This document shows, piece after piece, positions 27,575-45,337 of a stretch of DNA of 52,483 nucleotides. Origin of the DNA: a virus (Duplodnaviria; Caudoviricetes); the IMG/VR virus record IMGVR_UViG_3300032233_000380, positions 1 to 52,483 of that record; one strand, written 5' to 3'. Below the pieces are notes generated by a model that saw nothing but the letters and a program-made list of their open reading frames with translations, made no database searches and was not told the DNA's origin. Position 1 is the first letter of the stretch. Each line of letters starts with the position of its first letter. The position numbers and the translations under genes were made by a program.

Positions 27575-29148
27575 TTGTTTTCTCCTAGACCGAGTTCTGA
27601 CTTATATAAATCAACTAATTTTTCATGCATATCTACTTTATTTTGCAACACTTCGTACATCTTTCTTTCAACTGGAGAACCTTGTAAATGAACTACTGTC
27701 ATTTTGTTCTTTTGACCTACCCTGTCAATACGAGCAATACATTGTAGGTACGTTTCTACACTAGTAACAGGAGACCAAAATACTACAGTATTCGCAGCTG
27801 TTAGCGTTACTCCATGACTCGCAGCTTGCGGTTGTATTACAAGGATTCTTGGGTTGTCTGATTGTTGAAATCTGTTGATGATTAGACTGCGTTCTTTTGC
27901 AGGTACATCGCCATTGATGACTTCGTTTGTGATTCCCTCCTCTGTTAAGAACTTACAAACTAACTGTATAGTGTGCCTATACGGTACAAAAATAATTAGC
28001 TTGTGTTCTGTTTCTTCGATAACTTCAAGTAGAGCGTTCTTGCGTGGCGTTATATCGAACTCAACTACCTCCCTTTCATCAGTATATACTGCCCCTCCTG
28101 ATAATTGCAATAGCTTATTTAAATTTGTTGCAGCATTTACTGTGGTGATTTGTTCACCCGCCGCTTGAATAAGCATGTTCTTCTTTAAATCATTGTAGTA
28201 GCGAAGCGCTTGTGGTGAGAGTGGTACTTCCCGTGTCTGGTACATTAAATCAGGCAGGTCTAAACACTCGTTTTTTGTGAAGCGAATTGCTGGTTGCAAT
28301 GCATCAAATACTTTTTGCTTTGCGTCATGTTTTGGTATCCATTTAAAACGTGATAGTTGATGCATAACTTTATCTTTCCACACAGTCATTGTGCGTGGCA
28401 CGTTTTGTGGTGATACGAGTTTGGCTATACCAAATGCATCTATTGGCGATTGTGAGGCGGGTGTTCCTGTTAACATCCACAACCTCGTGGTTGGTTTGAT
28501 CAATTTAGCTAATGCTTTCCATCTTTTAGTCGTAACGTTTTTATAAGCGTTTGCTTCATCAACTACTATTAGGTCAAACCCTATTTTTTCTAGTTCATCA
28601 AATACAATGTTTACTCCATCGTAATTTATAACGATAAACTCATAGTCTCCACTAAGAATCTTTTTACGCTTGTCTGGGCTACCATACGCTACAGCAACTC
28701 GTCTATGCATTGCAGTTTTAAAAATGTCTGCTTGCCATGCTGAATACATAATTGACAGAGGACATATCACCAAGACTTTTTTGATATGGTTTTGATTCAT
28801 TAAATAATCAGCAGCCCAAATAACAGATGATGTTTTACCTGTCCCTGCTTCGTTAAAACAGAACGCCCGCATGTTAATGGATAGGAACGCTGAAGTAACT
28901 CTTTGGTGATCGAAAGGCTTATACAGTCCAGGCCAGTTGTAGTTAACACTTATGGGGGAGGGTAGGGGCTTATTAAACTTAACTAGTCTATTAAGTAGAG
29001 TTAGTTCTTCTATACCCCAATAAACCAAAACTTCTGAAAGATTACCCTTGGTCTCTACAAGTTCACTTTTTTCTATATTGTTTATTACGCTTGGCACAAG
29101 GTCTGTTGGGAGCGTAAAGCGAACCGCTGTGTTATCTACTATTTCCAT
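27571..29148 (-). CDS. SNF2-family (SF2) DNA helicase
   Basis: PFDHQ Q-motif, EAGTGKT, VVDEA, LTGTP, HGVTLT, QCIARIDRVGQ. Confidence 0.9.
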   Translation of the reverse strand: MEIVDNTAVRFTLPTDLVPSVINNIEKSELVETKGNLSEVLVYWGIEELTLLNRLVKFNKPLPSPISVNYNWPGLYKPFDHQRVTSAFLSINMRAFCFNEAGTGKTSSVIWAADYLMNQNHIKKVLVICPLSIMYSAWQADIFKTAMHRRVAVAYGSPDKRKKILSGDYEFIVINYDGVNIVFDELEKIGFDLIVVDEANAYKNVTTKRWKALAKLIKPTTRLWMLTGTPASQSPIDAFGIAKLVSPQNVPRTMTVWKDKVMHQLSRFKWIPKHDAKQKVFDALQPAIRFTKNECLDLPDLMYQTREVPLSPQALRYYNDLKKNMLIQAAGEQITTVNAATNLNKLLQLSGGAVYTDEREVVEFDITPRKNALLEVIEETEHKLIIFVPYRHTIQLVCKFLTEEGITNEVINGDVPAKERSLIINRFQQSDNPRILVIQPQAASHGVTLTAANTVVFWSPVTSVETYLQCIARIDRVGQKNKMTVVHLQGSPVERKMYEVLQNKVDMHEKLVDLYKSELGLGENK

Positions 29149-29160
29149 ATTTTCCTTAAC

Positions 29161-29320
29161 TAAGTTAACTAAAACCCCTTACGGGGGTTAGTCGTCTAGC
29201 CCATTACCACTCAAACAGGGAGGTCAAAAGCAGTACGGCTAGCTGACATGGTTTAAGCCTGAGAATCACCAAAGGCGAGCTTGTTTGTTACCCACTCATG
29301 TCTTACGGTAAACAAATACT
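29161..29320 (-). ncRNA. Candidate structured RNA (pseudoknot plus three hairpins) between HNH-like gene and SNF2 helicase
   Basis: Complementary segments 29307-29316/29284-29292, 29297-29302/29245-29250, 29273-29276/29257-29260, 29237-29242/29196-29201, and terminal CCCC-GUAA-GGGG-UUUU; folded by hand only. Confidence 0.55.
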
Positions 29321-33624: not shown

Positions 33625-33642
33625 TTACTACTCCCTGTTAAA

Positions 33643-33852
33643 TTAAATATAATCGTCTTTGTTAAATTTTGCAATGAATTTTTCCTTAAATTTTTTCATT
33701 GCTCTCTTTTCTATATGACCTACTGTACTTCTATTTACTCCAAGTTCATCTGCCACCTCCTTTTGTGTTTTACTAAAAAGCGTTTTATCAAAGTCTTCAT
33801 CATCTACCTCGACCATCCCTGCAAAAGGTATGGGTTCAAGCCGTTTTGTCAT
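33643..33852 (-). CDS. Sigma-70 region 4-like HTH protein
   Basis: TQKEVADELGVNRSTVGHIEKRAMKK. Confidence 0.75.
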   Translation of the reverse strand: MTKRLEPIPFAGMVEVDDEDFDKTLFSKTQKEVADELGVNRSTVGHIEKRAMKKFKEKFIAKFNKDDYI

Positions 33853-34039
33853 ATTTTTTACCTTTGCGCACAGTTTTAATTCCTATCTCTTGAGGTTTAC
33901 GAGCCTCCACCATTGCGTCTGCCATAGCGTATGACATATACGGTATTTGGTCTATAGGGTAGTCTCCGCTAATAATCCATCCGTTCATAGCTAACCCTGC
34001 AAAGATGTCCCTGAGCATCCCTTCATCTTCTTGTGTCAT
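33836..34039 (-). CDS. Hypothetical phage protein
   Basis: LRDIFAGLAM...SYAMADAM motif; start reassigned to ATG 34039, which overlaps the upstream TGA. Confidence 0.65.
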   Translation of the reverse strand: MTQEDEGMLRDIFAGLAMNGWIISGDYPIDQIPYMSYAMADAMVEARKPQEIGIKTVRKGKKYDKTA

Positions 34040-34134
34040 AAGATACTCGCTAACCAATAACCCAATATTGTGCAAACCATACCGAATAGAACAGATATGA
34101 CAAGCGTAATCGCAATTTTGCTTATATCACTCAT
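34036..34134 (-). CDS. Small membrane peptide (32 aa, not in ORF track)
   Basis: MSDISKIAITLVISVLFGMVCTILGYWLASIL; AAACAGGGAGG RBS at 34144-34154; ATGA coupling to next gene. Confidence 0.6.
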   Translation of the reverse strand: MSDISKIAITLVISVLFGMVCTILGYWLASIL

Positions 34135-34339
34135 TTTTACTCGCCTCCCTGTTTATCCTAAATAAGAAATCATCACGATATTCTGTTGGTGGTACAAAGC
34201 CAAAGCGCTTAAAAGTCTTCATCACATCAGCGCCCATTGTCCAAACAAATTTAGAATCCCTATCAATCGCCATTGATGGCTTTACTTCTTTAGGTTTTTC
34301 TTGAACTGCAATCAATCGTCTAAGTGTTTTACTATGCAT
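34127..34339 (-). CDS. Hypothetical protein (70 aa)
   Basis: AGGAG RBS; DVMKTFKRFGFVPP. Confidence 0.6.
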   Translation of the reverse strand: MHSKTLRRLIAVQEKPKEVKPSMAIDRDSKFVWTMGADVMKTFKRFGFVPPTEYRDDFLFRINREASKNE

Positions 34340-34340
34340 A

Positions 34341-34643
34341 CTATTTCTCCTTTAACCAAGTTTCAATTAACTGTCTTAACTCTGAGACATTCATCTCATT
34401 AATAACTAACGCAAGACCACCCATCATCTTTATCTTAGCAAGATTAAGTTCTTGCAAAGCAGTCGTCTTGCCTTTCCCTGCTTTTGCTTCAATACCAATA
34501 AAGAATCCTTTATAGCAAGCAACAATGTCAGGCGCACCGCTAGAGCCAAAGCCTGTCCCTACTGGCTGAATAAAGTATGCACCCATAGAATCTAAGGTTC
34601 TCTTTATCTTTGTTTTAACTTTTGACTCAGGTGTTACTGCCAT
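34341..34643 (-). CDS. VRR-NUC family nuclease (resolvase-like)
   Basis: PESKVK, GAPDIV, FIGIEAKAGKGKTTALQ. Confidence 0.85.
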   Translation of the reverse strand: MAVTPESKVKTKIKRTLDSMGAYFIQPVGTGFGSSGAPDIVACYKGFFIGIEAKAGKGKTTALQELNLAKIKMMGGLALVINEMNVSELRQLIETWLKEK

Positions 34644-34645
34644 AG

Positions 34646-35014
34646 CTACTCCTTATTTAATACTTCACCAACCATTGAATCCAAATCTTGCCGTTCTATT
34701 ACAACCACAAAGAATGTATCGCTACCTCGCCAACCAGTATCTAACACATCTGAAGAGTAATTATTCATTAGTTCGCATACTCCGAAAGACCTATCGTGGT
34801 CTCTATATAAGTTAACGCTAGATGACGCAAGTATCATTGCCATCTTACCCTTAATACAATCAGGCAAAGTATCAGAAGTAAAAATTCTAACGATACTATT
34901 TCCCAAATAAACATAGTAATCGTCATTGACTTTCCTTAATGGCACACGATAAAGAGACCAGTTATATGGATGCACTAACGGAACTAAGTCGCTTATTTGG
35001 ATATGCATAGCCAC
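34646..35014 (-). CDS. Hypothetical protein (122 aa)
   Basis: GGAG RBS; in operon. Confidence 0.6.
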   Translation of the reverse strand: MAMHIQISDLVPLVHPYNWSLYRVPLRKVNDDYYVYLGNSIVRIFTSDTLPDCIKGKMAMILASSSVNLYRDHDRSFGVCELMNNYSSDVLDTGWRGSDTFFVVVIERQDLDSMVGEVLNKE

Positions 35015-35934
35015 TCCATATCGAAATCGGTGTTGTTGCTGTGATAACCGTAGCTAATACCTAATTCAGGAATGTAGGCATCTCCAAACGGTGCTAAAGA
35101 CTTATCTGCCCAAGGTCTATACTTACTATCAAGATGCACCTTAGTCATAGTCAAGCAAGACAACACATCAGGATACTCCTTCAAAGAACTAACACGCTTG
35201 AATGGACTCTTGTAGCTGAACTTATAAAATTCAACTCCACTAGAATTGCATACCTCACAACCTCCGTCAGCAATTAAATAGTGACCTTTTCTGTCTGCAC
35301 CTACGATATAGCAGTTATCTGTCATTTCATGGATTCCCTGTTTCCTAGTTTCTAACTGTATGTCAACTCTAGTGTAGTCGTCAATAGTCTTTAGGTATAA
35401 ATCCCTACTACTCTGTGATAAGTCGCTGATAGTCTTACCGTTTTGCAACGCTAAAAGTATTTCATGCGCATGGTCTCCATCAAGATTTTGTTTTCTGTCA
35501 ACATCAAACGAAGTCCATATTGGGCGCATCGCCTGATTAATTTTGTCATCAAATTGTTGAATCATTTCTTCTCCCTTAGTGGGTATACTTGCTTTCTTTA
35601 ATGATGTTATCAATGACGATAATTTTTTACTACGATAAGTGTGTCTATCAAAGTCATCAACCCCTCGTTGCTTTGACCGATACGGTGTGTGATAGCAAAA
35701 GTTATCTTCATACACAAACACACGACCGACAGGAAAGCCTTGTACTTCATCGCATAGCATAAAGTTATCTGTATTACCGCCACCGCTACCGAAACGAAAG
35801 TCGCCTGACTTTGCATATACTTTTAAGCCATAGATGTGATTAAGTTCACGAATGAGAGGTAACACTTTGCTTTGCGCTACCTCCTCTTTCACTGAATCAT
35901 CTGCTACTGCATGGAATAAGATATTACTTAACAT
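34993..35934 (-). CDS. Hypothetical protein (313 aa)
   Basis: ACAGGGAG RBS; long ORF, no recognised motif. Confidence 0.75.
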   Translation of the reverse strand: MLSNILFHAVADDSVKEEVAQSKVLPLIRELNHIYGLKVYAKSGDFRFGSGGGNTDNFMLCDEVQGFPVGRVFVYEDNFCYHTPYRSKQRGVDDFDRHTYRSKKLSSLITSLKKASIPTKGEEMIQQFDDKINQAMRPIWTSFDVDRKQNLDGDHAHEILLALQNGKTISDLSQSSRDLYLKTIDDYTRVDIQLETRKQGIHEMTDNCYIVGADRKGHYLIADGGCEVCNSSGVEFYKFSYKSPFKRVSSLKEYPDVLSCLTMTKVHLDSKYRPWADKSLAPFGDAYIPELGISYGYHSNNTDFDMEWLCISK

Positions 35935-35962
35935 ACTACTTCTCCCTGTGTTGAACTACTGA

Positions 35963-36988
35963 TTAACGAACTACATCCACACCGTTTAATACAACTCGTA
36001 AGCCCCACTCACTACCCTTGGTGTTCATGAAAGGAACTTCTACCTCATAGAATGGCTTGTGTGTCTCATACGCCTTCTTAGCCAAGCTAGTTTTGATTCG
36101 AGGTACGAGATTCTTAGGTTCGCATACTTTTGAATACCTGCCGTTTGATGCATAATTCTCAATCGCATATACACTAAAGCCGTTTATACTCAATGCCATT
36201 GCATACACCAATGATGCCTCAAACTCTGAACCGCTTTCGAGTAAATTATCGCCAATTCGCATAGCTTCATCAGACCCAAAGTATTTCCAACTATTGTCAT
36301 TTGGTTTACTAGCATGCTCTTCTAATAAATCTTTGGCTGATACCATCATTGTGTCTGTATCCAAACACTTCAGCATGGCATGGGCAACATCTAGTTTGGC
36401 TTTGTATCCCTCCATCAATACCTTTGCCCTCTTACGGTCAACGACCTTGCGGAATACTTGAATGTTCTGAGACTCGTGTGGTTTAAGAGTTTCTGCATCC
36501 AAGCGCAGACCTTTGAATATTGGCATAGAGACATCTTGCCCATTCGCATGCGCCGTTAAACCGTTGCCACTAAACCGATAGCCATCAAACATATAGCTAT
36601 TTTTTATCCACTCAGACATTTTCTTCCTGTCGCCTTGCCAATAACCATCTAGAGTGAACTCAATCGTATTGTCAGACCGCACAATGGCTAGGACTCTTGG
36701 TTTAGTAATTCTTTCATAGAACGGATAGGGTTCATAGTCTCTGTCTTTTTTACAGACTCGTTTACTTCGTACACCTTTGAGCAAATTATATTTTTGCTCA
36801 GTGATTTCTTTGGTATCCCAATCCTTGCCATAGCAAACATGATATTCAATATCGTTCTCAGTCTCGACTACCTGAAAGAGACTATATGGTTGTCTCCTGT
36901 CGCTATACATAGGAAAGTTCATCGTTCCCCTAAATGGGTCTTGCGTATAAGTTACAAGTTGTAACCCTTCGTATGTCAAATATGGCAT
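35963..36988 (-). CDS. Hypothetical protein (341 aa)
   Basis: AACAGGGAG RBS; long ORF, no recognised motif. Confidence 0.75.
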   Translation of the reverse strand: MPYLTYEGLQLVTYTQDPFRGTMNFPMYSDRRQPYSLFQVVETENDIEYHVCYGKDWDTKEITEQKYNLLKGVRSKRVCKKDRDYEPYPFYERITKPRVLAIVRSDNTIEFTLDGYWQGDRKKMSEWIKNSYMFDGYRFSGNGLTAHANGQDVSMPIFKGLRLDAETLKPHESQNIQVFRKVVDRKRAKVLMEGYKAKLDVAHAMLKCLDTDTMMVSAKDLLEEHASKPNDNSWKYFGSDEAMRIGDNLLESGSEFEASLVYAMALSINGFSVYAIENYASNGRYSKVCEPKNLVPRIKTSLAKKAYETHKPFYEVEVPFMNTKGSEWGLRVVLNGVDVVR

Positions 36989-37014
36989 AGTTTTCTCCCT
37001 GTTAATTAAGATAA

Positions 37015-38307
37015 TTACTGCTCAACCGTAACACAACGACCACCTGCGGGCGGAACAAAGCTAGAGTTCTGTGTAACAAACCACATGGTAGGAGTCGTTA
37101 CTTCCCACTTAGGATTATTCTCCACATAGCCATCGGTAAAGATAACCAAGGCTTCAGCATTGATTGAACTCTTAATTATGTATTCGCTGACACAACCAAC
37201 ATGAGTGCCACCACCGCCTTGGGGTTTGAGCATCTTGGCAATGTCCCCATAGTTACCTTCAAAGATTTGCTCACCATGCACTTTGGTATCCCACCACAAG
37301 ACTCGCACCTTGTCGGGGCTACAAGTTTCACAGATGGATGCCAGTTCTGAGGCAAACTCAGAGATTTGCTCATTGTCAATAGAGCCTGATGTGTCGATAG
37401 CAACTACCAACTCACCCATTGTCTCAGAGTGCATAGATGGCAGATACATATCATTAGCGAGATAAGACTTGTTCATCTTGCGCCATGTGTATTCATCCTT
37501 GCCACGCATCGCTGACTGAACAAACTCACGAAAGACCTCTCGCCAATCCACCTTTGGTTCAAGCAAATCTCCAATGACACGAGGGATAGATGCGCCCATC
37601 CGCCCTGCTAGCATACCGCCCTGCCGTAATGCTTTATCAACCGCATCCTCCAACTTCTTCAACTCCTCGGCAGTCATGTCTTCAATCTCCTTGAACACAT
37701 GGTCATCCATACCCTTGTCCATATTGCGTAGCGCCTCGTCAATGTCAGTCTCGTTTTGGCTTTCATCGTTCGTTGAACTGTTGTTTTGCTGAGGGCATGG
37801 CTGAGGCTGATTACCGTCTTGGTCTGCCTTGTCAAGTTCCTCCTTGCGTTTCTTCAAATACTCGTAGACCTTACGGACTGACCAATTATGAAACATTGGG
37901 TGATACAACCAATTAGGGTTAAGCGTAACCAATGGTTCTTTGTTGTGTCCTACTGTGCCAACAGTATTCTTGATGACATCATTGACAACGAAGTCCATCG
38001 CATAATTAAGCATCTTATGGTCATGGCTTAGGTCTCGGTGTCTTGGTATCTGTTTCAATGCCACATGAAGGTTCTCATGCAACACCACACCTCGCAACTC
38101 CGACTCCAACTTATACTCGGCGATATGTTCCTTGCAATACACCTTGTTCATGCCATCGGTGTAGGCGGTAAACATTCTGCCGTAAGTCTTGGCATCAATG
38201 ACTTCATTTCTACCTGATGCAATAATCTGCGAATACAATGCAGTCATTGGATGTTGCATCAAAGTAATATGCGCTTTCTTCAAGCGTGTTTCTTCTGCGG
38301 TTCTCAT
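37015..38307 (-). CDS. DUF2201-type metallopeptidase plus vWA domain protein
   Basis: TAYTDG, HENLH (HExxH), MIDAS DTSGS, GGGGT, IFTDGY. Confidence 0.85.
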   Translation of the reverse strand: MRTAEETRLKKAHITLMQHPMTALYSQIIASGRNEVIDAKTYGRMFTAYTDGMNKVYCKEHIAEYKLESELRGVVLHENLHVALKQIPRHRDLSHDHKMLNYAMDFVVNDVIKNTVGTVGHNKEPLVTLNPNWLYHPMFHNWSVRKVYEYLKKRKEELDKADQDGNQPQPCPQQNNSSTNDESQNETDIDEALRNMDKGMDDHVFKEIEDMTAEELKKLEDAVDKALRQGGMLAGRMGASIPRVIGDLLEPKVDWREVFREFVQSAMRGKDEYTWRKMNKSYLANDMYLPSMHSETMGELVVAIDTSGSIDNEQISEFASELASICETCSPDKVRVLWWDTKVHGEQIFEGNYGDIAKMLKPQGGGGTHVGCVSEYIIKSSINAEALVIFTDGYVENNPKWEVTTPTMWFVTQNSSFVPPAGGRCVTVEQ

Positions 38308-38335
38308 ACCATTTCTCCCTGTGTTGAACTACTAA

Positions 38336-39415
38336 TTAATCACCAAACAACTCATGGTTAGCTACTGCCCATGTCTTGATTTCCTCGTTGTTACGAGCAA
38401 TCTTAGCTGTGCGTTTAGCCCTCATAATCATCGTAAAGAATATTGCCTGACACTCATCGCTAGCGACTCTCTTCACGAACTTCATGAACTTGGATAGCTC
38501 ATCCTGTGTCTCTAACAAGTCTATCGCCTGAAACATAATCATAAGAAGGGCTGACATATCTTTTGGAACTTCTATGTCGTCTGGCTTCTTCAAGATGTCC
38601 TTGAAGTCAGGTAATTGTTCCTCTAGCGATAAAAACGCTGACATCTGTTTGGCGGCGGATACACCGATTGTCCCTGCAAGAGCAACCATCGTGGCATTCT
38701 CACCGAGGATGTTTTTGTTTTCAACGATGACTGAACTCTTAGCTAACGACCGAGGCGATACGAACTGATTCCCTGCTCTCTTTGGATTAAAGATTACAGT
38801 ATTCTCGTCTTGGTCTCCACTCCGATAAGATGCCAACCAATTAGGGTGCATGGCTACGCAAGAACGAATCGAACGATGGATTCCATTCTCCGATGCCCAC
38901 AACAACCACTCTTTCGGGCTAGGTTTAGCCATCTCAATCTTACACACACGATTCCCTGCGTGGGCAAGCATAGAGTCACCGACACCATCTGTTGCATTAT
39001 TAGATGTTGCAAAGATGATTGACCCCTTGGGTAACGGCACATCACCAACCATTCTTTCTAGCATCATGCGAGTAAAGATAATCTGTAATAGCTTTGGCGC
39101 TTTCATCAACTCGTCAAGGCAGATGACTTTCTTCTTGCCGTTGCCTAGCTTGAACAGACCTGCGACATAGTATTCCAAGGTCTTGGTCTCATGGTTAGGA
39201 ATAACCATACCAATGTCAGACATATCTTTGACAGGACAGTCCACATATATGTAGTCATACTCGGTTGTCCCCAAATCTTCTTCTAGCATATTCAAGAGGC
39301 TAGTCTTACCTACCCCTGGCTCGCTAATGATGACTGGGGTAAGACTCTTACCAATGATAGGAATCGCTTTACGCAATTCGCTGATGGACATAGTTTCTAC
39401 TAGATTAAGTTTCAT
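38336..39415 (-). CDS. MoxR-like AAA+ ATPase
   Basis: Walker A SEPGVGKT, Walker B ICLDE, ATSN sensor I, SPRS sensor II; adjacent to vWA gene. Confidence 0.85.
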   Translation of the reverse strand: MKLNLVETMSISELRKAIPIIGKSLTPVIISEPGVGKTSLLNMLEEDLGTTEYDYIYVDCPVKDMSDIGMVIPNHETKTLEYYVAGLFKLGNGKKKVICLDELMKAPKLLQIIFTRMMLERMVGDVPLPKGSIIFATSNNATDGVGDSMLAHAGNRVCKIEMAKPSPKEWLLWASENGIHRSIRSCVAMHPNWLASYRSGDQDENTVIFNPKRAGNQFVSPRSLAKSSVIVENKNILGENATMVALAGTIGVSAAKQMSAFLSLEEQLPDFKDILKKPDDIEVPKDMSALLMIMFQAIDLLETQDELSKFMKFVKRVASDECQAIFFTMIMRAKRTAKIARNNEEIKTWAVANHELFGD

Positions 39416-39435
39416 TTGATTCTCCCTGTTTAGGT

Positions 39436-40359
39436 TTAGATTGATTGAAATGCACCGAACTTCATTAGAATGTCATCGACACCCTTCTTCACGCTTTCAC
39501 GCACCGCATCGCTTTCTCGAATGTCCTCTGCTGATACACCGCCTAAGACTTTCTCCAACGATACAGACGCTTTAGCTAACTCTTCATCATTCGTGAGATT
39601 GAACGACCTAAAGGTCTCGCACAAGTCCTTAGCCTTATCGACTGTGGTCTCGTATATCTTACGCTTTTTGGTCTTGACTTCTCCATCTGTTGAACTGCTA
39701 ATTTCGTCAACACCGCAACAATGACTAATTGACTCCATGACCTCCATGAACTGATTAGCAATATCAGACATGACCTGTGGAACAATCTCATCATTGACCT
39801 GTTTTTGGTATGTAATTTTTAAGTCTTCAGCCAAGTCCTGCGCTATGGAACAGCGAAAGTCCGACTGTGGAACTTCTGCCACATACAACCTGATACGGAA
39901 CTTGTCCTTGATTTGGTCAACCGATGGATACTCCGAACGGTCAAACATATCCCCTTGCTTGAATGCCATGTTAGAAACAATTTGGGGATATTTAGCCAAG
40001 AACGCATCACGCAACGCAAAGTAAGCCTTCTCATGGTGTTGAAACTCTGTTTTGAACTTTGGCAAATTCACGACAGGCAACAACCGCAATGACCCATTCC
40101 AATCGTAAGTTGACCTACGAAGCCAGTTATAAACGGTCTGTCTATAATTGAGCAGTTGCTTATGGGTGGGGTCGTCAGCTAAGAGATTCTTTACATACCG
40201 CCCTGCTGAATGGTCTGCTTTCTTAGCCGTTGTTACCTCGTTAGAGATAACTCTATCTTGCTTAGTCGCTGACCAAACGCTTACTTCTGCATTGACCAAG
40301 ACTGCCGATGTCGCAAGACTGATGACATGGTTCGGACTGTCTAACTGAATAACACTCAT
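39436..40359 (-). CDS. DUF3150-like protein
   Basis: GAGG RBS; VSVWSATKQD...KNLL...EYPS..QIKDKF...FNLTND pattern of proteins found next to phage MoxR/vWA pairs. Confidence 0.55.
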   Translation of the reverse strand: MSVIQLDSPNHVISLATSAVLVNAEVSVWSATKQDRVISNEVTTAKKADHSAGRYVKNLLADDPTHKQLLNYRQTVYNWLRRSTYDWNGSLRLLPVVNLPKFKTEFQHHEKAYFALRDAFLAKYPQIVSNMAFKQGDMFDRSEYPSVDQIKDKFRIRLYVAEVPQSDFRCSIAQDLAEDLKITYQKQVNDEIVPQVMSDIANQFMEVMESISHCCGVDEISSSTDGEVKTKKRKIYETTVDKAKDLCETFRSFNLTNDEELAKASVSLEKVLGGVSAEDIRESDAVRESVKKGVDDILMKFGAFQSI

Positions 40360-40466
40360 ATTTCACCTCACTAAAGATTAACTTCAATAACTGTTGAACT
40401 GTTATATAACGGTTCGGCTTAACTGCTTACTGATACGACTTAAACATCTTCACTCCCAACAAACAT

Positions 40467-40489
40467 ATTATACCACATACTTTACATAT
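40467..40489 (-). promoter_or_regulatory. Extended -10 promoter (ATATGTAAAGTATGTGGTATAAT), copy 1
   Basis: TGTGGTATAAT; 23 bp identical to 42574-42596; upstream of the DUF3150/MoxR/vWA operon. Confidence 0.75.
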
Positions 40490-40511
40490 GATAATACTTT
40501 ATACATCTTTT

Positions 40512-40976
40512 TTATACATCCCAGTCGAAATGAACTTCACGATGGACTCGTAACCAATCCCAGTCGTATTCACCAAAAAACTCTTCAGTGATGTCATCGG
40601 AGTTCTCGCCCACACGCACAAAGATACCTCCTATATGCTTGTTACCTGCAACCTCACCATTTTTCTCGTCTGTGTTCTCAGCCCAATCTTGGGCTAACTG
40701 CAACAAAGCCATATGGCACTTCACATCCTCGAAGTCCTCGTACCACTTCACATCACTAGCGAAGAAGTTCAGCGCACGGTTCTTCTCATCTATAGTCATA
40801 GCCTCGTCGGATATTGCTGATGGGAACTTAACCTTTGCTTCAGCTAAGAATGTATAGAATGACTTCTTAGCCGACTGTATTTCTTGGTCGCTAGGGAACT
40901 CGCCCCCTTCTGCTTCTTGTGGGCTAGGTAACGCAGTAAACCTTATGGTGTAAGCAACTGTTGAACGATAGCCCAT
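40512..40976 (-). CDS. Hypothetical protein (MGYRSTV...)
   Basis: GAGG RBS before ATG 40976; DVKWYEDF, FVRVGENSDD motifs. Confidence 0.7.
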   Translation of the reverse strand: MGYRSTVAYTIRFTALPSPQEAEGGEFPSDQEIQSAKKSFYTFLAEAKVKFPSAISDEAMTIDEKNRALNFFASDVKWYEDFEDVKCHMALLQLAQDWAENTDEKNGEVAGNKHIGGIFVRVGENSDDITEEFFGEYDWDWLRVHREVHFDWDV

Positions 40977-40977
40977 G

Positions 40978-41274
40978 TTACCCCTCTTGCTCATCTGTTT
41001 TGTTGGGACTGTCTTTTCTCGAAATGCCCTGCTGATTTCTACTTTGAATCGTTCTTTCCGCATTGCGTCTGGCATTGTGGATAACTTCCTCCGTTTCATA
41101 CCTAGCCTCCTCCCACATTACTTGTTCCTGCACTTCACATAGTTCGTTGAACTTATCAGCCATGCCCTGCTTATCGCCACGCTTGTGGGCATCCACCGCC
41201 TCTTTGAGAATCTGTAGTTCTTTTGCCAAAGAAGTCTTATAAAACTCGGTTATGTCTAGGTCTTTCTTGCTCAT
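40978..41274 (-). CDS. Hypothetical protein (98 aa)
   Basis: GGAGG RBS. Confidence 0.6.
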   Translation of the reverse strand: MSKKDLDITEFYKTSLAKELQILKEAVDAHKRGDKQGMADKFNELCEVQEQVMWEEARYETEEVIHNARRNAERTIQSRNQQGISRKDSPNKTDEQEG

Positions 41275-41351
41275 ACCAAACCTCCAATTATGTTAATCAT
41301 GAAAACCATCAGTAAAACAAATAAAACTACAGCCCATGCTTTATCTTCCAT
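41271..41351 (-). CDS. Small membrane peptide (26 aa, not in ORF track)
   Basis: MEDKAWAVVFIVLLMVFMINIIGGLV; AGGAG RBS; ATGA coupling to next gene. Confidence 0.5.
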   Translation of the reverse strand: MEDKAWAVVLFVLLMVFMINIIGGLV

Positions 41352-41457
41352 GAGCTGTTCTCCTAGTAAACCAAGGGATAGTTTTGCGCATTGGCTTATA
41401 CCCCCCTCGGTTCTTCCTACAATACTTGTGGTCTATTCGTGGGTCAATCCATTTCAT
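41341..41457 (-). CDS. Small basic peptide (38 aa, not in ORF track)
   Basis: MKWIDPRIDHKYCRKNRGGYKPMRKTIPWFTRRTAHGR; GGAGG upstream; fills the gap between genes. Confidence 0.4.
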   Translation of the reverse strand: MKWIDPRIDHKYCRKNRGGYKPMRKTIPWFTRRTAHGR

Positions 41458-41460
41458 TTT

Positions 41461-41658
41461 TTATGCCCTCCATGATGCGTCATCAATTATTTGGGCTTCA
41501 TCCTCATCATCTTTTGGTTCACTCCCTGTTGAATACAAACCCCATACATAGTCAAAGAGAATATTAGTTAGCTTTTCGCTATCCTTATATTTCCACCCGT
41601 CATTCGTTATATATAAAAGCAAGGTGTCCAATGCTTTTAGTTCTTCCTTGGTCATCAT
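41461..41658 (-). CDS. Hypothetical protein (65 aa)
   Basis: GGAGG RBS; ATGA coupling. Confidence 0.55.
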   Translation of the reverse strand: MMTKEELKALDTLLLYITNDGWKYKDSEKLTNILFDYVWGLYSTGSEPKDDEDEAQIIDDASWRA

Positions 41659-41873
41659 TTAACTAACCCTCCCTTGTTATTTAATCCTTTCAGGTCAGCC
41701 CTGTCAGTAATCAACATATAGTTTGACTTGTGCATTGGCGCAACGGTTCGCACGACCTTACTCGCTAGGTCATCACCGCATGGCATACAGACTGCATAGC
41801 CAATACGAAACCGAGCCTCGTCATAGGTATCACCACATAGCTTGCACTGTGGGCTAAAAGTCTCATCAATCAT
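41655..41873 (-). CDS. DksA/TraR-type C4 zinc-finger protein
   Basis: AAGGAG RBS before ATG 41873; CKLCGDTYDEARFRIGYAVCMPC. Confidence 0.65.
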   Translation of the reverse strand: MIDETFSPQCKLCGDTYDEARFRIGYAVCMPCGDDLASKVVRTVAPMHKSNYMLITDRADLKGLNNKGGLVK

Positions 41874-42066
41874 GGTTGAACTCCTTATTAGCTTTAACGA
41901 TTTCGCCCGATGCCTCAAACTCTTTCCATGCTTGGCAAGTCGGGCATTGACGGTCATAGTCGGGACACTTCTCACCCCAATACTGAATCATGCCTTCCTC
42001 TGCATCGTCTGCTTCACAGGCTTTCGCCCACTCGTGGTCAAGCCACGCATCTAGCTTAATAGTCAT
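41866..42066 (-). CDS. Small Cys-containing hypothetical protein
   Basis: CAAACAGGGAGGT RBS; CPDY..QCPTC. Confidence 0.65.
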   Translation of the reverse strand: MTIKLDAWLDHEWAKACEADDAEEGMIQYWGEKCPDYDRQCPTCQAWKEFEASGEIVKANKEFNHD

Positions 42067-42260
42067 GACTCACCTCCCTGTTTGCCAAACGACTTCTCGT
42101 ATGCGTCAAGCCACGCATTGAAGTCTTTTTCGTGTTGCGCCCATTCCTCAGCCCTCAGGTTGTCCTGCGCCAAGTCTAGTTCTAACTGCCGTTGATGGAT
42201 TTCCATTTTGGTTAGTTTTTCTTCCCAATACTCGTTGAAGAGTTGTTTAACTCTGCCCAT
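42063..42260 (-). CDS. Hypothetical protein (65 aa)
   Basis: GGAGG RBS; MGRVKQL start. Confidence 0.6.
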   Translation of the reverse strand: MGRVKQLFNEYWEEKLTKMEIHQRQLELDLAQDNLRAEEWAQHEKDFNAWLDAYEKSFGKQGGES

Positions 42261-42262
42261 GA

Positions 42263-42469
42263 TTAAGCCTCCTCTGTCATTGTTGGAATGAATTCGTAGC
42301 CGACCACGAGTAGGGCAAGCAACACATTGACTGTCAGTAACCGCCCACGCTTGAATAGAATCTCCTGTGTGTTTGGGTCACATAAGTCTTGCGCCAAATA
42401 CAGACCCTCGTTAAGGACTGGGTTAAATATCTGAACTTCTACTTCTTCTTGGATTTTTTTAGTATCCAT
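42263..42469 (-). CDS. Hypothetical protein
   Basis: AGGAGG RBS before ATG 42469 (MDTKKIQ...). Confidence 0.6.
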   Translation of the reverse strand: MDTKKIQEEVEVQIFNPVLNEGLYLAQDLCDPNTQEILFKRGRLLTVNVLLALLVVGYEFIPTMTEEA

Positions 42470-42573
42470 AACACCTCCTGTTAAGATTAATTTCAATAGT
42501 CGTTGAACTCTTATTTAAGGAATTGTTCCGACCTCGTAGATTAGCCACTAATTTGTGCGCCTCTCCAGTAATC

Positions 42574-42596
42574 ATTATACCACATACTTTACATAT
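42574..42596 (-). promoter_or_regulatory. Extended -10 promoter (ATATGTAAAGTATGTGGTATAAT), copy 2
   Basis: Identical 23 bp to 40467-40489; upstream of the small-gene cluster. Confidence 0.75.
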
Positions 42597-42659
42597 AATA
42601 GGCTTCTATCTGACTTTTTTAGGAGGGTCTTCTTGCTGATATTAGGCTTTTACCTTGTT

Positions 42660-43060
42660 TTTTGCGGTGTAAGTTATTGATATTCCTCGTGTTCTGATGT
42701 TCTGAGCCTCGTAACTTTACTAATGGAACTGGAACAAGGTTTTTGCGTGGTGATGGGGATTCTGTAAGTCCTTGTTTTATATATATAATATATAATATAT
42801 AATAATAATAATAGGGGGCGAAAAGAGAGTTGTTCCAATGTTCTGACTGTTCTGAGGGGATAGGGGGAAAAGTGATTTTTTGTTTTGCACTCGCAAAATG
42901 CTTCGAACGACCTGACCAATTTTATTTTCACTTTCCCAAACCACATTTCTTGGTCAGAACACTGGAACACTGGAACAAAACACTGTAACTCCTTGATTCT
43001 ACATGGCTTTTCTTGTTCCAGACTTTGTTCCAGCCATGACTTGTTCCAGAACTTGCTCGG
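42660..43060. other. Putative replication origin: AT-only tract, about 12 TGTTC(C/T) iteron-like repeats in both orientations, IHF-like sites
   Basis: A/T-only tract about 42775-42813; repeats at 42690, 42698, 42731, 42831, 42839, 42848, 42956, 42964, 42972, 43014, 43026, 43042; YAA-N4-TTGATW matches at 42670-42682 and 42986-42998. Confidence 0.55.
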
Positions 43061-43186
43061 CAATACATTGTCTACATGATGAGCCACTTCAACACCTGTT
43101 GAACTCTTAAATAAGGAAACGGGCCAACATGGCGCTGTGCGTTGCGTCAGCAAAGAATTCTAAAACTGATGCAAACCCTTGTTCAC

Positions 43187-43258
43187 GCGCGCGAGGACAG
43201 ATAACTGGTTTCATTTTTAGGACAAAAAAAGGGGAGAGAGCCGAAGCCCTCCCCCCTC
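43187..43258 (-). terminator. Terminator (cUUCGg hairpin plus T7) followed by conserved 27-bp box, copy 1
   Basis: GGGGGAGGGC-TTCG-GCTCTCTCCCC-TTTTTTT then TGAAACCAGTTATCTGTCCTCGCGCGC. Confidence 0.75.
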
Positions 43259-43272
43259 AAAAACAATCTAGA

Positions 43273-43959
43273 TTACTTCTTGAATACAGCGTTGAAAGCT
43301 GATATTGCCTTATCTAACTTAGCGACATCAGCGAATTCATCGCCTTTAGCTTTCGCATTTTTGCAACGAGTTTTCATGGTATCGAAAACGCCCTTATCGT
43401 TATAGAGCCATTCCATGAAAGCCAAGTTACCTTTGCGCTGAGTAACTTCACCCTTGCGCTCTTTCAGTATTTTGTTACCCTCCGCTTGAAGCTTTGCGAA
43501 AGTGGTAGTCTCATACTTGTTGCAACGGGTTCTAATATCCGCAACAATCGCATGCAATACAGGATTGTGAGTCTCTTTCAATTTACCTGCTTGTTGCTGA
43601 GTAAAGCTGAAAGCATAATCAACGCCAATATTAACTATCTCGGCATTTTTAGGTAACTCAATACCTTGTAATTGCATGTCGCTAACCTTGAGATACTTAC
43701 CCTCAATAATGCAATACTGAGTGGGTTTATTTAGCTCTGAGTGTTTGCGCTTGTAACCTTGACGAATCGCCAAAGTATCTTCGTCGCTAACATTATCAGG
43801 AAAACCCTTAACCCCTCCATCAAGCGCCCATGTCGCTAATTGCTTGACAGTATGCAACGCACCACCATGCCTATAACCTAAATCAGGCAAGCTAGTAGGT
43901 TGATTAGAGTTAATAACAGCGCCTTGCTCAAGGGCATTTACAAGCTTGGTTTTTGTCAT
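43273..43959 (-). CDS. Early hypothetical protein (228 aa)
   Basis: GGGAGG RBS before ATG 43959; has its own promoter and terminator. Confidence 0.75.
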   Translation of the reverse strand: MTKTKLVNALEQGAVINSNQPTSLPDLGYRHGGALHTVKQLATWALDGGVKGFPDNVSDEDTLAIRQGYKRKHSELNKPTQYCIIEGKYLKVSDMQLQGIELPKNAEIVNIGVDYAFSFTQQQAGKLKETHNPVLHAIVADIRTRCNKYETTTFAKLQAEGNKILKERKGEVTQRKGNLAFMEWLYNDKGVFDTMKTRCKNAKAKGDEFADVAKLDKAISAFNAVFKK

Positions 43960-44022
43960 AAGTGACAAACCTCCCATTTATGCAATGAATGGCAAATTGA
44001 AATTAATTGGCATCACTCAAGG

Positions 44023-44060
44023 CATGACTAAATTATCTCTTATCCCACGCTATTTGTAAA
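44023..44060 (-). promoter_or_regulatory. Sigma-70 early promoter TTTACA-N17-GATAAT followed by TTAGTCATG
   Basis: -35 at 44055-44060, -10 at 44032-44037; downstream 9-mer shared with two other promoters. Confidence 0.75.
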
Positions 44061-44110
44061 GTTCAACAGGCGTTGAACCGCTATATACGGAAGCGCACGC
44101 TCACGCAGAT

Positions 44111-44165
44111 GCGCTCGAGGACAAATAACTGGTATCAAACCCTCCCGCCGAAGCGAGAGGGCTGA
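44111..44165 (-). repeat. Terminator-like hairpin plus conserved box, copy 2
   Basis: TCAGCCCTCTCGC-TTCG-GCGGGAGGG-TTTGATACCAGTTATTTGTCCTCGAGCGC. Confidence 0.85.
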
Positions 44166-44183
44166 AGGTACTACAGGGAATAC

Positions 44184-44645: not shown

Positions 44646-44678
44646 TTGATTCTCCCTGTTAACGGCAGGAATTACTGC

Positions 44679-44716
44679 CATGACTAAATTATGCATTAAA
44701 TGACAGGATATGTCAA
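44679..44716 (-). promoter_or_regulatory. Sigma-70 early promoter TTGACA-N17-CATAAT followed by TTAGTCATG
   Basis: -35 at 44711-44716, -10 at 44688-44693. Confidence 0.85.
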
Positions 44717-44749
44717 GTATTGGGCGTGGTCGGGTGGTGCGCTCACTAC

Positions 44750-44806
44750 GCGCGCGACAACAAATAACTGGTATCAAACCCTCCCGCCGTTAAGCGAGAG
44801 GGCTGA
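44750..44806 (-). repeat. Terminator-like hairpin plus conserved box, copy 3
   Basis: TCAGCCCTCTCGC-TTAACG-GCGGGAGGG-TTTGATACCAGTTATTTGTTGTCGCGCGC. Confidence 0.85.
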
Positions 44807-44808
44807 GT

Positions 44809-45324: not shown

Positions 45325-45337
45325 AATTACCTCCCTG

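What the first reader, a model, noticed from the sequence alone, without database searches (positions are those of the whole stretch)
29161..29320. Candidate trans-acting structured RNA whose loop is the exact antisense of the RBS motif shared by 11 early genes
Seen in sequence: the 185-bp gap between the HNH-like gene and the SNF2 helicase folds on the transcribed (minus) strand into four stems. P1 (29316-29307/29292-29284) has a loop that pairs downstream as a pseudoknot (GACAUG 29302-29297 with CAUGUC 29250-29245, alternatively extended by GAGU/GCUC). P2 is GCCU/AGGC. P3 is a long stem (CUAGCC/GGCUAG, continued by UACUGCUU/GAGUGGUA and GAC/GUU) capped by the loop CUCCCU. P4 is CCCC-GUAA-GGGG-UUUU, resembling a terminator. 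The P3 apex reads ACCUCCCUGUUUG (29224-29212). This complements the early-gene RBSs: 13/13 nt at 42072-42084, 11 nt at 34144 and 45329, 10 nt at 39422 and 45007, 9 nt at 33631, 36995, 44652 and 45618, and 8 nt at 35942 and 38315. It is the only opposite-orientation copy I noticed, and no + strand start codon follows it at RBS distance. Rough chance of a given 9-mer in this gap is about 370/4^9, or 0.001, before allowing for post-hoc selection. Inference: a middle-expressed RNA could switch off the early regulon by pairing to a shared RBS 'address'. That would be an RNA-based analogue of T4 RegB, which cuts GGAG in early Shine-Dalgarno sequences.
Basis: partly seen in the sequence, partly recalled or inferred. 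Interest (0 to 1): 0.9.

Follow-up and report, generated by a model that had tools for sequence, protein, structure and literature searches.

The report
Conserved pseudoknotted phage leader RNA
The gap before this uncultured phage's SNF2 helicase gene encodes a real, widely conserved, apparently undescribed folded RNA that displays a ribosome-like pyrimidine loop, but the idea that this loop is a tailored antisense 'address' for early genes holds only in this phage's close relatives.

Summary
The stems, the pseudoknot and the 8-13 nt complementarity of the P3 apex to 11 early ribosome-binding sites are confirmed.

The element belongs to a large phage RNA family: 153 IMG/VR loci, 124 of them unique. 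P1, the pseudoknot and P3 covary strongly in two alignments. There is no Rfam 15 match.

It occurs once per genome in 11 of 11 genomes. It is sense-oriented and usually lies 20-35 nt before the SNF2 start. In a minority it heads polA, primase-helicase or terminase operons instead.

P4 is a conserved CGUAA-loop hairpin and is rarely a terminator. About 30% of members have a near-consensus promoter just upstream. The element is therefore an operon leader; nothing shows a discrete terminated sRNA.

The family-wide apex feature is an exposed pyrimidine tract (UCUCCUU/CCUUUC), which is anti-Shine-Dalgarno-like. In 9 other genomes the apex does not track the genome's own RBS motif, including one genome with its own strong extended motif.

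The mechanism is unresolved. I rank Shine-Dalgarno pairing in trans first (about 0.3), then RNA-only antitermination, riboswitch and ribozyme.

The scan had already noted this RNA family on other DNA (e1-6213353 and others).

The parts
29171..29320 (-). Whole conserved RNA element (P1 to P4), in the 5' leader of the SNF2 helicase gene
   Evidence: Model R1 hit at 29145-29320, 168.6 bits; it is the only hit in the window. No Rfam match.
29284..29316 (-). P1 hairpin. The family-supported core is 29311-29307 paired with 29292-29288. The 14-nt loop GUAAGACAUGAGUG (29306-29293) has family-conserved GUNAG and AGUG.
   Evidence: All 5 of 5 P1 pairs change on both sides in both alignments. Loop conservation seen.
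29297..29302 (-). Pseudoknot 5' strand, GACAUG, inside the P1 loop
   Evidence: Pairs with 29250-29245. The pseudoknot was not part of the covariance model, yet it is 97% and 100% paired; 4 of 6 and 3 of 6 pairs change on both sides. All 80 pattern hits show 6 of 6 pairs.
29245..29254 (-). J2/3 AAAC followed by the pseudoknot 3' strand CAUGUC (29250-29245)
   Evidence: AAC and the following CAG are nearly invariant. Covariation.
29257..29276 (-). P2, a variable hairpin (GCCU/AGGC)
   Evidence: Drawn by the MFE fold. The equivalent region folds better than shuffles across the family: mean z -1.65, and 91 of 124 have z < -1. It was not aligned well enough for pair counts.
29196..29242 (-). P3: outer stem 29242-29237 with 29201-29196, inner stem 29234-29228 with 29212-29206, and the apical loop
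   Evidence: Outer stem: 7 of 7 and 6 of 7 pairs change on both sides. The inner stem shows compensatory changes among close relatives (by eye).
29212..29224 (-). P3 apex ACCUCCCUGUUUG; the pyrimidine tract CCUCCCU is 29223-29217
   Evidence: Complementary over 8-13 nt to 11-13 early start regions. The family shows a conserved pyrimidine tract at this position, predicted unpaired.
29174..29195 (-). J3/4 (ACGACUA) and the P4 hairpin ACCCC-CGUAA-GGGGU
   Evidence: 72 of 116 members have CCGRNUNN followed by a stem and a GUAA/GCAA loop. The stem varies in a paired way (CCCC/GGGG, CACC/GGUG, CUAC/GUAG, CUCC/GGAG). A T-rich tail follows in only 5-8 of 72.
29146..29157 (-). SNF2 Shine-Dalgarno AAGGA (29157-29153) and start codon (29148-29146)
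   Evidence: ORF 27571-29148 has SNF2-rel_dom and Helicase_C domains. Its start region pairs poorly with the P3 interior.
33631..45626 (-). Early-gene arm carrying the (A)ACAGGGAG RBS motif. Sites are at 33631, 34145, 35942, 36995, 38315, 39422, 42074, 44652, 45007, 45331 and 45618; a further copy at 41522 is not clearly an RBS.

Best explanation
SHOWN: The gap encodes one member of a large, phage-restricted family of roughly 130-150-nt pseudoknotted RNAs.
- The fold is a P1 hairpin whose loop pairs with the strand just before P3, a variable P2, a long P3, and a P4 hairpin with a CGUAA loop.
- The RNA is transcribed in the sense direction.
- It lies at the head of an operon. Here and in most relatives that is the SNF2 helicase operon.

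INFERRED: The element's working surface is the exposed pyrimidine tract at the P3 apex. The family consensus is about UCUCCUUUC, which from recall matches the 3' tail of 16S rRNA that reads Shine-Dalgarno sequences.

MECHANISM (inferred; about 0.3 on its own): The tract pairs with purine-rich Shine-Dalgarno regions of other messages and occludes them. It does not prefer the start region of the gene right behind it. In the window's clade the tract has drifted to CCUCCCUGUU. The phage's early genes carry the matching extended RBS AACAGGGAG, so the leader made with the replication/SNF2 transcript could dampen early-gene translation. The pseudoknotted scaffold would provide stability, processing or a protein partner.

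The 'address' is a clade-specific refinement. It is not the family's defining property.
For: Structure:
- SNF2-anchored set: 96.9% of cells paired, 18 of 22 pairs change on both sides, 0 of 500 shuffles reach this, and slid controls give at most 6 such pairs.
- Independent pattern-found set of 83 distinct sequences: 94.6% paired; the pseudoknot is 100% paired, with CG 41/UA 41 and GC 46/AU 36 at two positions.
- G-U pairs at one pseudoknot position (73 of 82) make the fold strand-specific.

Family and placement:
- The model hits 38 of 58 SNF2 loci plus the window.
- The degenerate pattern finds 119 or more stretches in IMG/VR.
- There are only 2 hits, both on short MAG contigs, in 185,579 species genomes.
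- There is one copy per genome in 11 of 11 genomes.

Tract:
- CUCC occurs in 67% of 116 P3 interiors against 18% in shuffles. A pyrimidine run of 7 or more occurs in 77% against 30%.
- Mean unpaired probability is 0.72 for the tract against 0.45 for the rest of P3.

Window clade:
- 8-13 nt matches to 11 early RBSs.
- The six best pairing partners of 67 gene starts are all motif-bearing early genes.
- The motif and the apex co-occur in G006, G011, G012 and G013.

Not a cis anti-SD:
- The own start region ranks 46/67, 14/31, 11/38, 42/48, 19/84, 48/67, 10/90, 27/68 and 52/60.
- Own-versus-cross duplex energy is -7.49 against -8.15 kcal/mol.
Against: - Outside the clade, the apex shows no excess complementarity to its own genome's start regions. 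G008's own extended RBS motif is not mirrored.
- A 5-7-nt generic anti-SD match is weak for a trans regulator.
- A conserved pseudoknot, conserved junction bases and a conserved P4 loop are more than an antisense RNA needs. They point to a macromolecular or small-molecule partner.
- No terminator follows P4 in more than 85% of members, so a free small RNA would need processing.
- The RNA is made 1:1 with an mRNA.
- The tract is absent or altered in some members. L007/L008 have CAUCCCUG, L011 has CCUCA, and several have only CCUUUCG.
- No expression data bear on this. Only assembled contigs from RNA libraries were available.
- The resemblance to the 16S tail is recalled and was not tested, because the host is unknown.
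Confidence: 0.3

Rival explanations
1. Cis-acting RNA-only antitermination or anti-Rho leader, working like HK022 put, B. subtilis EAR or E. coli RARE. The folded nascent leader would modify RNA polymerase, or trap Rho, so that transcription runs through the long operon behind it. The pyrimidine tract would be a protein-contact surface, and its match to early RBSs would be incidental.
For: - The element is always sense-oriented at the head of an operon.
- It is portable between unrelated operons: SNF2 in 68 of 80 loci, and polA, primase-helicase, terminase with tRNA-Met, or unknown genes in 7 of 80.
- It is independent of the small basic ORF, which is absent upstream in those 7 loci.
- 36 of 124 members have a 9-11 of 12 sigma-70 promoter ending 2-45 nt before P1, against 5 control windows.
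- P4 is not a terminator.
- The complex conserved scaffold fits a machine-binding RNA.
- put, EAR and RARE are described as structured antitermination RNAs in PMC8632103 (passages read).
Against: - There is no excess of intrinsic terminators downstream in the window (10 found against 9.5 in shuffles, one on the minus strand). Rho sites cannot be predicted here.
- No Rfam family matched, at gathering score on the window or at E<=10 or E<=1 on the element region and 12 member loci.
- The idea does not explain why the tract is specifically anti-SD-like (CUCC in 67%). It also does not explain why the window clade's altered tract matches its altered RBS motif.
Confidence: 0.25
2. Ligand-sensing riboswitch. 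The pseudoknotted core would bind a small molecule such as a nucleotide-related or infection-state signal, and would tune expression of the operon behind it.
For: - Multi-helix fold with a pseudoknot.
- Highly conserved unpaired bases in the P1 loop, J2/3, the P3 internal loop (GACAG) and J3/4.
- Fixed 5'-UTR position 20-35 nt before a start codon.
- In the L030 clade, a terminator-like hairpin with U5 lies inside P3, which could be an alternative fold.
Against: - No consistent expression platform: P4 is not a terminator, and the downstream SD is not a preferred partner of the apex.
- Downstream genes share no metabolic logic: helicase, polymerase, terminase, tRNA.
- No match to any known riboswitch class in Rfam.
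Confidence: 0.12
3. Self-cleaving ribozyme or dedicated RNase-processing site that separates the upstream message from the SNF2 operon message, or sets its 5' end.
For: - Conserved core bases together with a pseudoknot.
- Gene-context independence.
- Phage-only distribution.
- Intercistronic position in about 70% of members that lack a recognisable promoter.
Against: - No hit to any ribozyme family in Rfam, even at E<=10 on the element region.
- In about 30% of members the element starts the transcript, so cleavage would remove almost nothing.
Confidence: 0.08
4. Decoy that mimics the 16S rRNA 3' tail for a protein, for example a host toxin or nuclease that attacks the anti-SD, or a ribosomal or initiation factor. 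It would not be an RNA-RNA regulator.
For: - The tract consensus UCUCCUUUC resembles the 16S tail (recalled).
- It is exposed on a stable scaffold.
- A toxin that removes the 16S anti-SD exists (PMC12274833; search listing only).
Against: - The window clade's tract departs from the 16S-like consensus, yet it stays conserved and matches the phage's own RBS motif instead.
- The host and its 16S sequence are unknown.
Confidence: 0.07
5. Guide or partner RNA of the adjacent small basic 'HNH-like' protein, in the manner of HEARO/IscB.
For: A homologue of the small ORF ends 11-85 nt upstream of the element in 72 of 80 pattern-found loci.
Against: - The ORF has no Pfam HNH hit at E<=10, and its only PHROG match is of unknown function.
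- The RNA occurs without the ORF upstream in 7 of 80 loci.
- L013, L014 and L017 have the ORF and SNF2 but lack the RNA.
- No HEARO hit.
Confidence: 0.03

Closest known systems
c4 antisense RNA of phages P1/P7 (Rfam RF01695; listed in PMC2864571, passage read; mechanism recalled)
   Same: It is a phage RNA embedded in the leader of an operon. Its exposed loops are complementary to ribosome-binding regions, and it represses translation by occlusion.
   Different: - c4 targets the RBS of the gene just downstream in its own operon. Here the own downstream start region is a poor partner.
- The fold is different, with no pseudoknot of this kind.
- There is no covariance-model hit.
Anti-SD-loop small RNAs: the alphaproteobacterial 'cuckoo' family with CCUCCUCCC loops (PMC4615179, passages read)
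   Same: A conserved, exposed anti-Shine-Dalgarno-like pyrimidine motif sits in a hairpin loop while the stems covary freely. The presumed action is RBS occlusion.
   Different: - Cuckoo RNAs are 2-4 simple adjacent hairpins that each carry the motif, and they are chromosomal trans-encoded sRNAs.
- This element has one tract on a pseudoknotted four-helix scaffold.
- It lies in an mRNA leader and is restricted to phages.
RNA-only antitermination elements: HK022 put, B. subtilis EAR, E. coli RARE (PMC8632103, passages read)
   Same: These are structured, promoter-proximal or intra-operon RNAs that act irrespective of the downstream genes' identity. put is also phage-encoded.
   Different: - No sequence or model similarity was found.
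- put is a ~65-nt double hairpin without this pseudoknot.
- No downstream terminators were identified here.
- Function was not tested.
T4 RegB endoribonuclease
   Same: Functional analogy only: it shuts off early messages through their GGAG Shine-Dalgarno sequences.
   Different: RegB is a protein nuclease. Nothing here shows cleavage or early shut-off.
T4 gene 32 leader pseudoknot and the unnamed phage candidates of PMC10690425 (passage read)
   Same: A pseudoknotted leader sits directly upstream of a phage replication gene. That survey reports thousands of unnamed phage RNA candidates from metagenomes.
   Different: - The gene 32 leader is an autoregulatory protein-binding site tied to one gene, whereas this element moves between operons.
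- I could not see that paper's supplementary tables, so this family may already be among its unnamed candidates.

Membership tests
Any Rfam 15 family | Covariance-model match at or near the gathering score | tested here: not met
   - 0 hits in the window at gathering score.
- Only a 12-nt chance CRISPR-DR36 hit at E=3.3 on the P4 hairpin (29175-29186) in 29050-29450.
- In 12 diverse member loci no hit overlaps the element at E<=1.
c4 antisense RNA (RF01695) | Loops complementary to the RBS region of the next gene in the same operon | tested here: not met
   The own SNF2 start region pairs at -8.5 kcal/mol, rank 46 of 67. Ranks are mediocre in 9 genomes.
c4 antisense RNA (RF01695) | Match to the family model | tested here: not met
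Cuckoo / anti-SD-loop sRNAs | 2-4 adjacent hairpins, each with a CCUCCUCCC loop (PMC4615179) | tested here: not met
   There is one pyrimidine tract, with consensus UCUCCUU/CCUUUC, on a pseudoknotted scaffold.
Cuckoo / anti-SD-loop sRNAs | Exposed anti-SD-like motif conserved while stems vary | tested here: met
put/EAR/RARE-type antitermination RNA | Sense-oriented, promoter-proximal or intra-operon position, independent of downstream gene identity | tested here: met
put/EAR/RARE-type antitermination RNA | Causes read-through of downstream terminators | not testable with these tools
   The only available indication is that intrinsic-terminator-like sites downstream are not in excess.
Riboswitch | Conserved aptamer joined to an expression platform (terminator or SD-sequestering helix) | tested here: inconclusive
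   A complex conserved core is present. P4 is rarely terminator-like (5-8 of 72), and there is no preferred apex-SD pairing.
Riboswitch | Ligand binding | not testable with these tools
   No assay is available here.
HEARO / IscB omega-RNA | RNA obligatorily linked to an HNH(+RuvC) nuclease gene; match to the family model | tested here: not met
   - No Pfam HNH hit for the 111-aa ORF.
- The RNA occurs without the ORF, and the ORF without the RNA.
- No model hit.
Intrinsic terminator (for P4) | GC-rich stem followed by a U-run, conserved across relatives | tested here: not met
   - The window has a 4-5 bp stem followed by UUUU, and the scan does not call it.
- Only 5 of 72 (>=4 T in 6) or 8 of 72 (>=5 T in 8) relatives have a T-rich tail.
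   - Excess is seen only for G000 and G006 (7 genes with >=9 nt).
- The other 9 genomes give 0-2, the same as off-diagonal comparisons.
- G008's own motif is not mirrored.

The most novel reading that the evidence does not exclude
A phage-wide class of leader RNAs displays a mimic of the 16S rRNA anti-Shine-Dalgarno tail on a pseudoknotted scaffold and uses it to occlude Shine-Dalgarno sequences in trans. That would be RNA-based reprogramming of translation during infection. Individual lineages could retune it: in this clade the tract and the phage's early-gene RBS 'address' (AACAGGGAG) would have co-evolved, so that the replication-stage leader switches off the early regulon. It would be an RNA counterpart of T4 RegB.
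Probability: 0.15. Interest if true: 0.85.

Novelty: new variant of a known kind. Interest (0 to 1): 0.6.

Why it matters
If the family is truly undescribed, it is a widespread structured phage RNA with unusually clean covariation: at least 153 loci in IMG/VR, and none in Rfam 15. It has a pseudoknot and an exposed ribosome-like pyrimidine tract.

Few phage leader RNAs have known mechanisms. This one is portable between replication and packaging operons, so it probably acts on a general machine such as the ribosome and Shine-Dalgarno sites, RNA polymerase or Rho.

The window's clade offers a rare natural experiment. There the tract and a phage-specific RBS motif match over 9-13 nt, which makes the question 'does a phage use an RNA to silence its own early genes?' directly testable with reporters and compensatory mutations.

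Tried and rejected
Searches and tests that gave nothing or were negative:
- Nucleotide search of the 4-kb region against GenBank phages found no match. Relatives came only from IMG/VR.
- Single-sequence folding energy is not significant (z -1.0).
- Cis anti-SD model, in which the apex sequesters the SNF2 Shine-Dalgarno: rejected as a specific interaction.
  - Own pairs are no stronger than cross pairs (-7.49 against -8.15 kcal/mol; 99.9% of permutations are at least as stable).
  - Own start regions rank mid-table in 9 genomes. In that call the own-start windows for G004 and G007 were mis-set, and I do not count them.
- I looked for a conserved orthologous target of the apex across 11 genomes and found none.
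- I looked for complementarity of the whole 160-nt element, not just P3, to start regions. The result was the same as for P3 alone.

Sequencing runs:
- Only assembled contigs were on hand. One contig each from two RNA libraries (X3 28623-29510, X6 29039-29356) crosses the element-SNF2 junction.
- Contigs cannot show ends, strand or level, so I draw nothing from this. I also draw nothing from parts without cover, or from the small-share runs listed.

Other points:
- Host identification failed. The strict pattern scan of 185,579 species genomes gave only two short MAG contigs, which are probably binned phage fragments.
- I considered a boxA/NusB-like reading of the pyrimidine tract from memory and dropped it, because the order of bases does not match.
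- A P2-loop match to G008's RBS spacer (6 nt) was dropped as within chance.
- My own ORF caller is crude: longest ORFs with SD-weighted starts. It biases start windows toward SD-containing ones. The cross-genome matrices use the same caller for all genomes.
- In one search some P3 interiors were cut short by my automatic stem finder, so the 67% for CUCC is a lower bound.
- The recount from the table is 39 full-length hits (the window plus 38 loci), 2 partial and 2 spurious.
- Supplementary tables of PMC10690425 were closed. The family may be among its unnamed candidates.
Full report
THE OBSERVATION

- P1: 29316-29307 with 29292-29284.
- A P1-loop segment, GACAUG (29302-29297), complementary to CAUGUC (29250-29245).
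- P2: GCCU/AGGC.
- A long P3 capped by ACCUCCCUGUUUG (29224-29212).
- P4: CCCC-GUAA-GGGG-UUUU.

The RBS motif AACAGGGAG occurs exactly 11 times in the window. Shuffles give 0.39 on average, and 0 of 100 reach 11. Ten copies are on the minus strand between 33.6 and 45.6 kb. The single plus-strand copy is the P3 apex. Nine of the ten minus-strand copies sit 5-10 nt before an ATG.

Two labels need correction:
- The 'HNH-like' ORF has no Pfam hit even at E<=10, and its only PHROG match is of unknown function.
- P4 does not meet the terminator scan's criteria.

Folding energy alone is unremarkable (z = -1.0).

IS THE RNA REAL?

The window is an IMG/VR virus record about 83% complete. It has no close relative in GenBank phages.

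Searching IMG/VR with the SNF2 protein gave 58 loci spanning 97% down to 38% protein identity. In 38 of them the stretch directly before the SNF2 start is homologous to the gap. The 20 loci without a full element break down as follows:
- Two keep only the J3/4-P4 hairpin (L014, L017).
- One is cut inside the gene (L052).
- The others have a short promoter-like spacer instead.

On the model-guided alignment, 96.9% of cells are standard pairs and 18 of 22 pairs change on both sides. No shuffle of 500 reaches these values, and sliding the partners by 1-3 columns leaves at most 6 such pairs. The pseudoknot was not part of the covariance model. Even so, it is 97% paired and 4 of its 6 pairs covary.

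A second, independent sampling used a degenerate pattern for the P1 loop plus the pseudoknot 3' strand.
- All 80 listed loci have 6 of 6 pseudoknot pairs, spread over many different pseudoknot sequences. The purine/pyrimidine pattern guarantees only about three pairs in four at the variable positions.
- On 83 distinct sequences from that set, 94.6% of cells pair. The pseudoknot is 100% paired, with CG 41/UA 41 and GC 46/AU 36 at two positions.
- Frequent G-U pairs (73 of 82 at one position) make the fold specific to the gene-sense strand.

Other structural points:
- P2 is a variable hairpin (mean z -1.65 over 124 sequences).
- P4 is a 5-6-bp stem whose sequence varies in a paired way under a conserved CGUAA loop, preceded by a conserved CCGAYU junction.

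In total the regular expression finds the element in 153 fetched loci, 124 of them unique. No Rfam 15 family matches the window or 12 diverse members. The structural half of the finding is therefore confirmed, and the RNA appears to be undescribed. I could not open the supplementary candidate lists of PMC10690425.

WHERE IT SITS

- There is one copy per genome in 11 of 11 fetched genomes.
- It is essentially phage-only. A strict three-part pattern found only two short MAG contigs among 185,579 species genomes.
- In 68 of the 80 pattern-found loci an SNF2 homologue starts downstream: 57 within 67-201 nt of the pseudoknot and 11 at 324-660 nt.
- A homologue of the small basic ORF ends 11-85 nt upstream in 72 of 80.
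- In 7 of 80 loci the element heads other operons and lacks the small ORF upstream:
  - a small ORF followed by DNA polymerase A (L130, L137);
  - a primase-helicase operon (L094);
  - tRNA-Met followed by small and large terminase (L098, L145);
  - an unknown 297-aa gene (L128, L142).
- Conversely, L013, L014 and L017 have the small ORF and SNF2 without the RNA.

The element is thus a separable module. It is not tied to the 'HNH-like' protein, contrary to the companion note e1-6349505. It is also not an SNF2-specific operator.

Two further observations place it in a leader:
- 36 of 124 unique members have a 9-11 of 12 sigma-70-type promoter ending 2-45 nt before P1, against 5 hits in control windows 300 nt further upstream. 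In L030 the tool places TTGACA-16-CATAAT so that transcription would begin at P1.
- Only 5-8 of 72 P4 hairpins are followed by a T-rich run. The distance from the P3 end to the next start codon clusters at 43-56 nt.

The element is therefore the 5' leader of an operon, or an intercistronic leader. Nothing here shows a stand-alone terminated small RNA. The window's UUUU after P4 is a peculiarity of its sub-clade.

THE APEX

Across 116 P3 interiors the conserved feature is a pyrimidine tract:
- CUCC is present in 67%, against 18% in shuffles.
- A run of 7 or more pyrimidines is present in 77%, against 30%.
- The commonest 6-7-mers are UCUCCU, UUCUCC, CUCCUU and CCUUUC.

From memory this is nearly the 16S rRNA 3' tail (CCUCCUUUCU). 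I could not test that, because the host is unknown. The tract is predicted to be mostly unpaired (0.72 against 0.45 for the rest of P3).

I fetched ten further genomes. For each I called genes crudely but uniformly. I then counted start regions with perfect complementarity of 7, 8 or 9 nt or more to each genome's P3 interior, in an all-against-all matrix. I repeated this with the whole element.

- Only the window (G000) and its 95%-identical relative G006 stand out: 7 genes with 9 nt or more.
- The other nine genomes give 0-2 on the diagonal, the same as off-diagonal.
- AACAGGGAG is absent from those nine.
- G008 has its own striking extended motif, TGGAGAATGCA-ATG, on at least 10 early genes. 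Its apex (GUCUCCUCUG) matches only UCUCC. That is a second natural test, and it is negative.

Within the window's clade the association holds:
- G012 has 7 sense copies and 1 antisense copy of ACAGGGAG.
- G013 has 10 sense copies and 1 antisense copy.
- G011 (85% SNF2 identity) has 3 sense copies in the 8.6 kb available, with an apex changed by one base (CAUCCCUGUU).
- The loop CCUCCCUGUU is invariant among six close relatives while the stem beneath it shows compensatory changes.

Given a conserved CUCC, five further matching bases have a chance of roughly one in a thousand. However, this is a single evolutionary event that was noticed after the fact.

CIS OR TRANS?

The apex does not prefer the start region of the gene behind it:
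- Own pairs average -7.49 kcal/mol and cross pairs -8.15.
- Own start regions rank 46/67, 14/31, 11/38, 42/48, 19/84, 48/67, 10/90, 27/68 and 52/60.

In the window the six best partners of 67 are all motif-bearing early genes (-17.5 to -25.4 kcal/mol), against -8.5 for SNF2. No orthologous target recurs across genomes. There is no excess of intrinsic terminators downstream. RNA libraries offered only assembled contigs, which say nothing about ends or level.

WHAT IT MOST LIKELY DOES

Shown:
- A conserved, pseudoknotted, sense-strand leader RNA.
- An exposed anti-SD-like tract.
- Portability between operons.

Inferred: the tract is the working surface.

I rank the mechanisms as follows:
1. Pairing of the tract with Shine-Dalgarno regions of other messages, about 0.30. 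The full co-evolved 'address' version stands at about 0.15.
2. RNA-only antitermination or anti-Rho action in cis, like put, EAR or RARE, about 0.25 (PMC8632103, passages read).
3. Riboswitch, about 0.12.
4. Ribozyme or processing site, about 0.08.
5. Protein decoy that mimics the 16S tail, about 0.07.
6. Partner RNA of the small basic protein, about 0.03.

The scaffold is more complex than an antisense RNA needs, which keeps the machine-binding rivals alive. The specific anti-SD character of the tract, and the matched drift of tract and RBS motif in this clade, keep the pairing model slightly ahead.

COMPARISON WITH KNOWN SYSTEMS

The element works most like phage c4 RNA or the anti-SD-loop 'cuckoo' sRNAs (PMC4615179), or alternatively like put/EAR leaders. 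It is a member of none of them. There are no model hits, the architecture differs, and the c4-defining pairing with the next gene's RBS was tested and not met.

EARLIER NOTES OF THIS SCAN

The same kind of RNA had been noted on other phage DNA: e1-6259180, e1-6230113 and e1-6284645. One follow-up (e1-6213353) had concluded that it is a new pseudoknotted leader RNA, not tied to the small HNH-like gene, that sometimes sits before other replication genes or tRNAs. My independent checks agree on all three points. I could not confirm sequence identity with those windows.

VERDICT

- The RNA is real, widespread and apparently undescribed.
- The tailored-address mechanism is a clade-specific possibility, not the family's rule.

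Noticed in passing
G008 (contig of L058), oriented coordinates 18052-31404; loci L081-L083: At least 10 early genes of this distant relative carry their own extended start-region motif, TGGAGAATGCA, directly before ATG.
   Followed up: partly
L014:2961-2980 and L017:2572-2591: These relatives keep only the J3/4-P4 hairpin (CGACUAGCCCCCGUAAGGGG) between the small basic ORF and SNF2. The rest of the RNA is absent, so P4 can persist alone.
   Followed up: no
L098:3129-3203 (-), and L098/L145 downstream ORFs: In two loci the element precedes a tRNA-Met gene (L098) and an Sf6-like small terminase plus large terminase. That is a late packaging operon, not a replication operon.
   Followed up: partly
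window 29334-29669 (-): The 'HNH-like' small basic ORF has no Pfam match at E<=10. Its only hit is PHROG 4590, of unknown function (E=8e-4). The HNH label rests on an H...GGSN...N pattern seen by eye.
   Followed up: partly
L030:2939-2957 (+): In the L030/L034 clade a terminator-like hairpin followed by U5 lies inside P3 and includes part of the pyrimidine tract. It could be an alternative fold.
   Followed up: no
G010 (contig of L034), gene start 11.7 kb upstream of the element: One early start region (of a 104-aa ORF) pairs with that genome's P3 interior at -37.8 kcal/mol, 4.8 sd beyond the genome mean. It is an isolated outlier.
   Followed up: no
L105:73-142 (-): A sub-threshold match to the int-alpA RNA family (RF02996; 31.3 bits against a gathering score of 35.8; E=0.015) lies elsewhere in a relative's contig, not at the element.
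   Followed up: no
The next ATG is 11 nt downstream, so it may or may not serve as an RBS.
   Followed up: no
P2 loops of many family members (e.g. L015, L018, L019, L032, L046): The otherwise variable P2 hairpin often carries UUGCA(G) in its loop. This possible second conserved single-stranded motif was seen by eye only.
   Followed up: no
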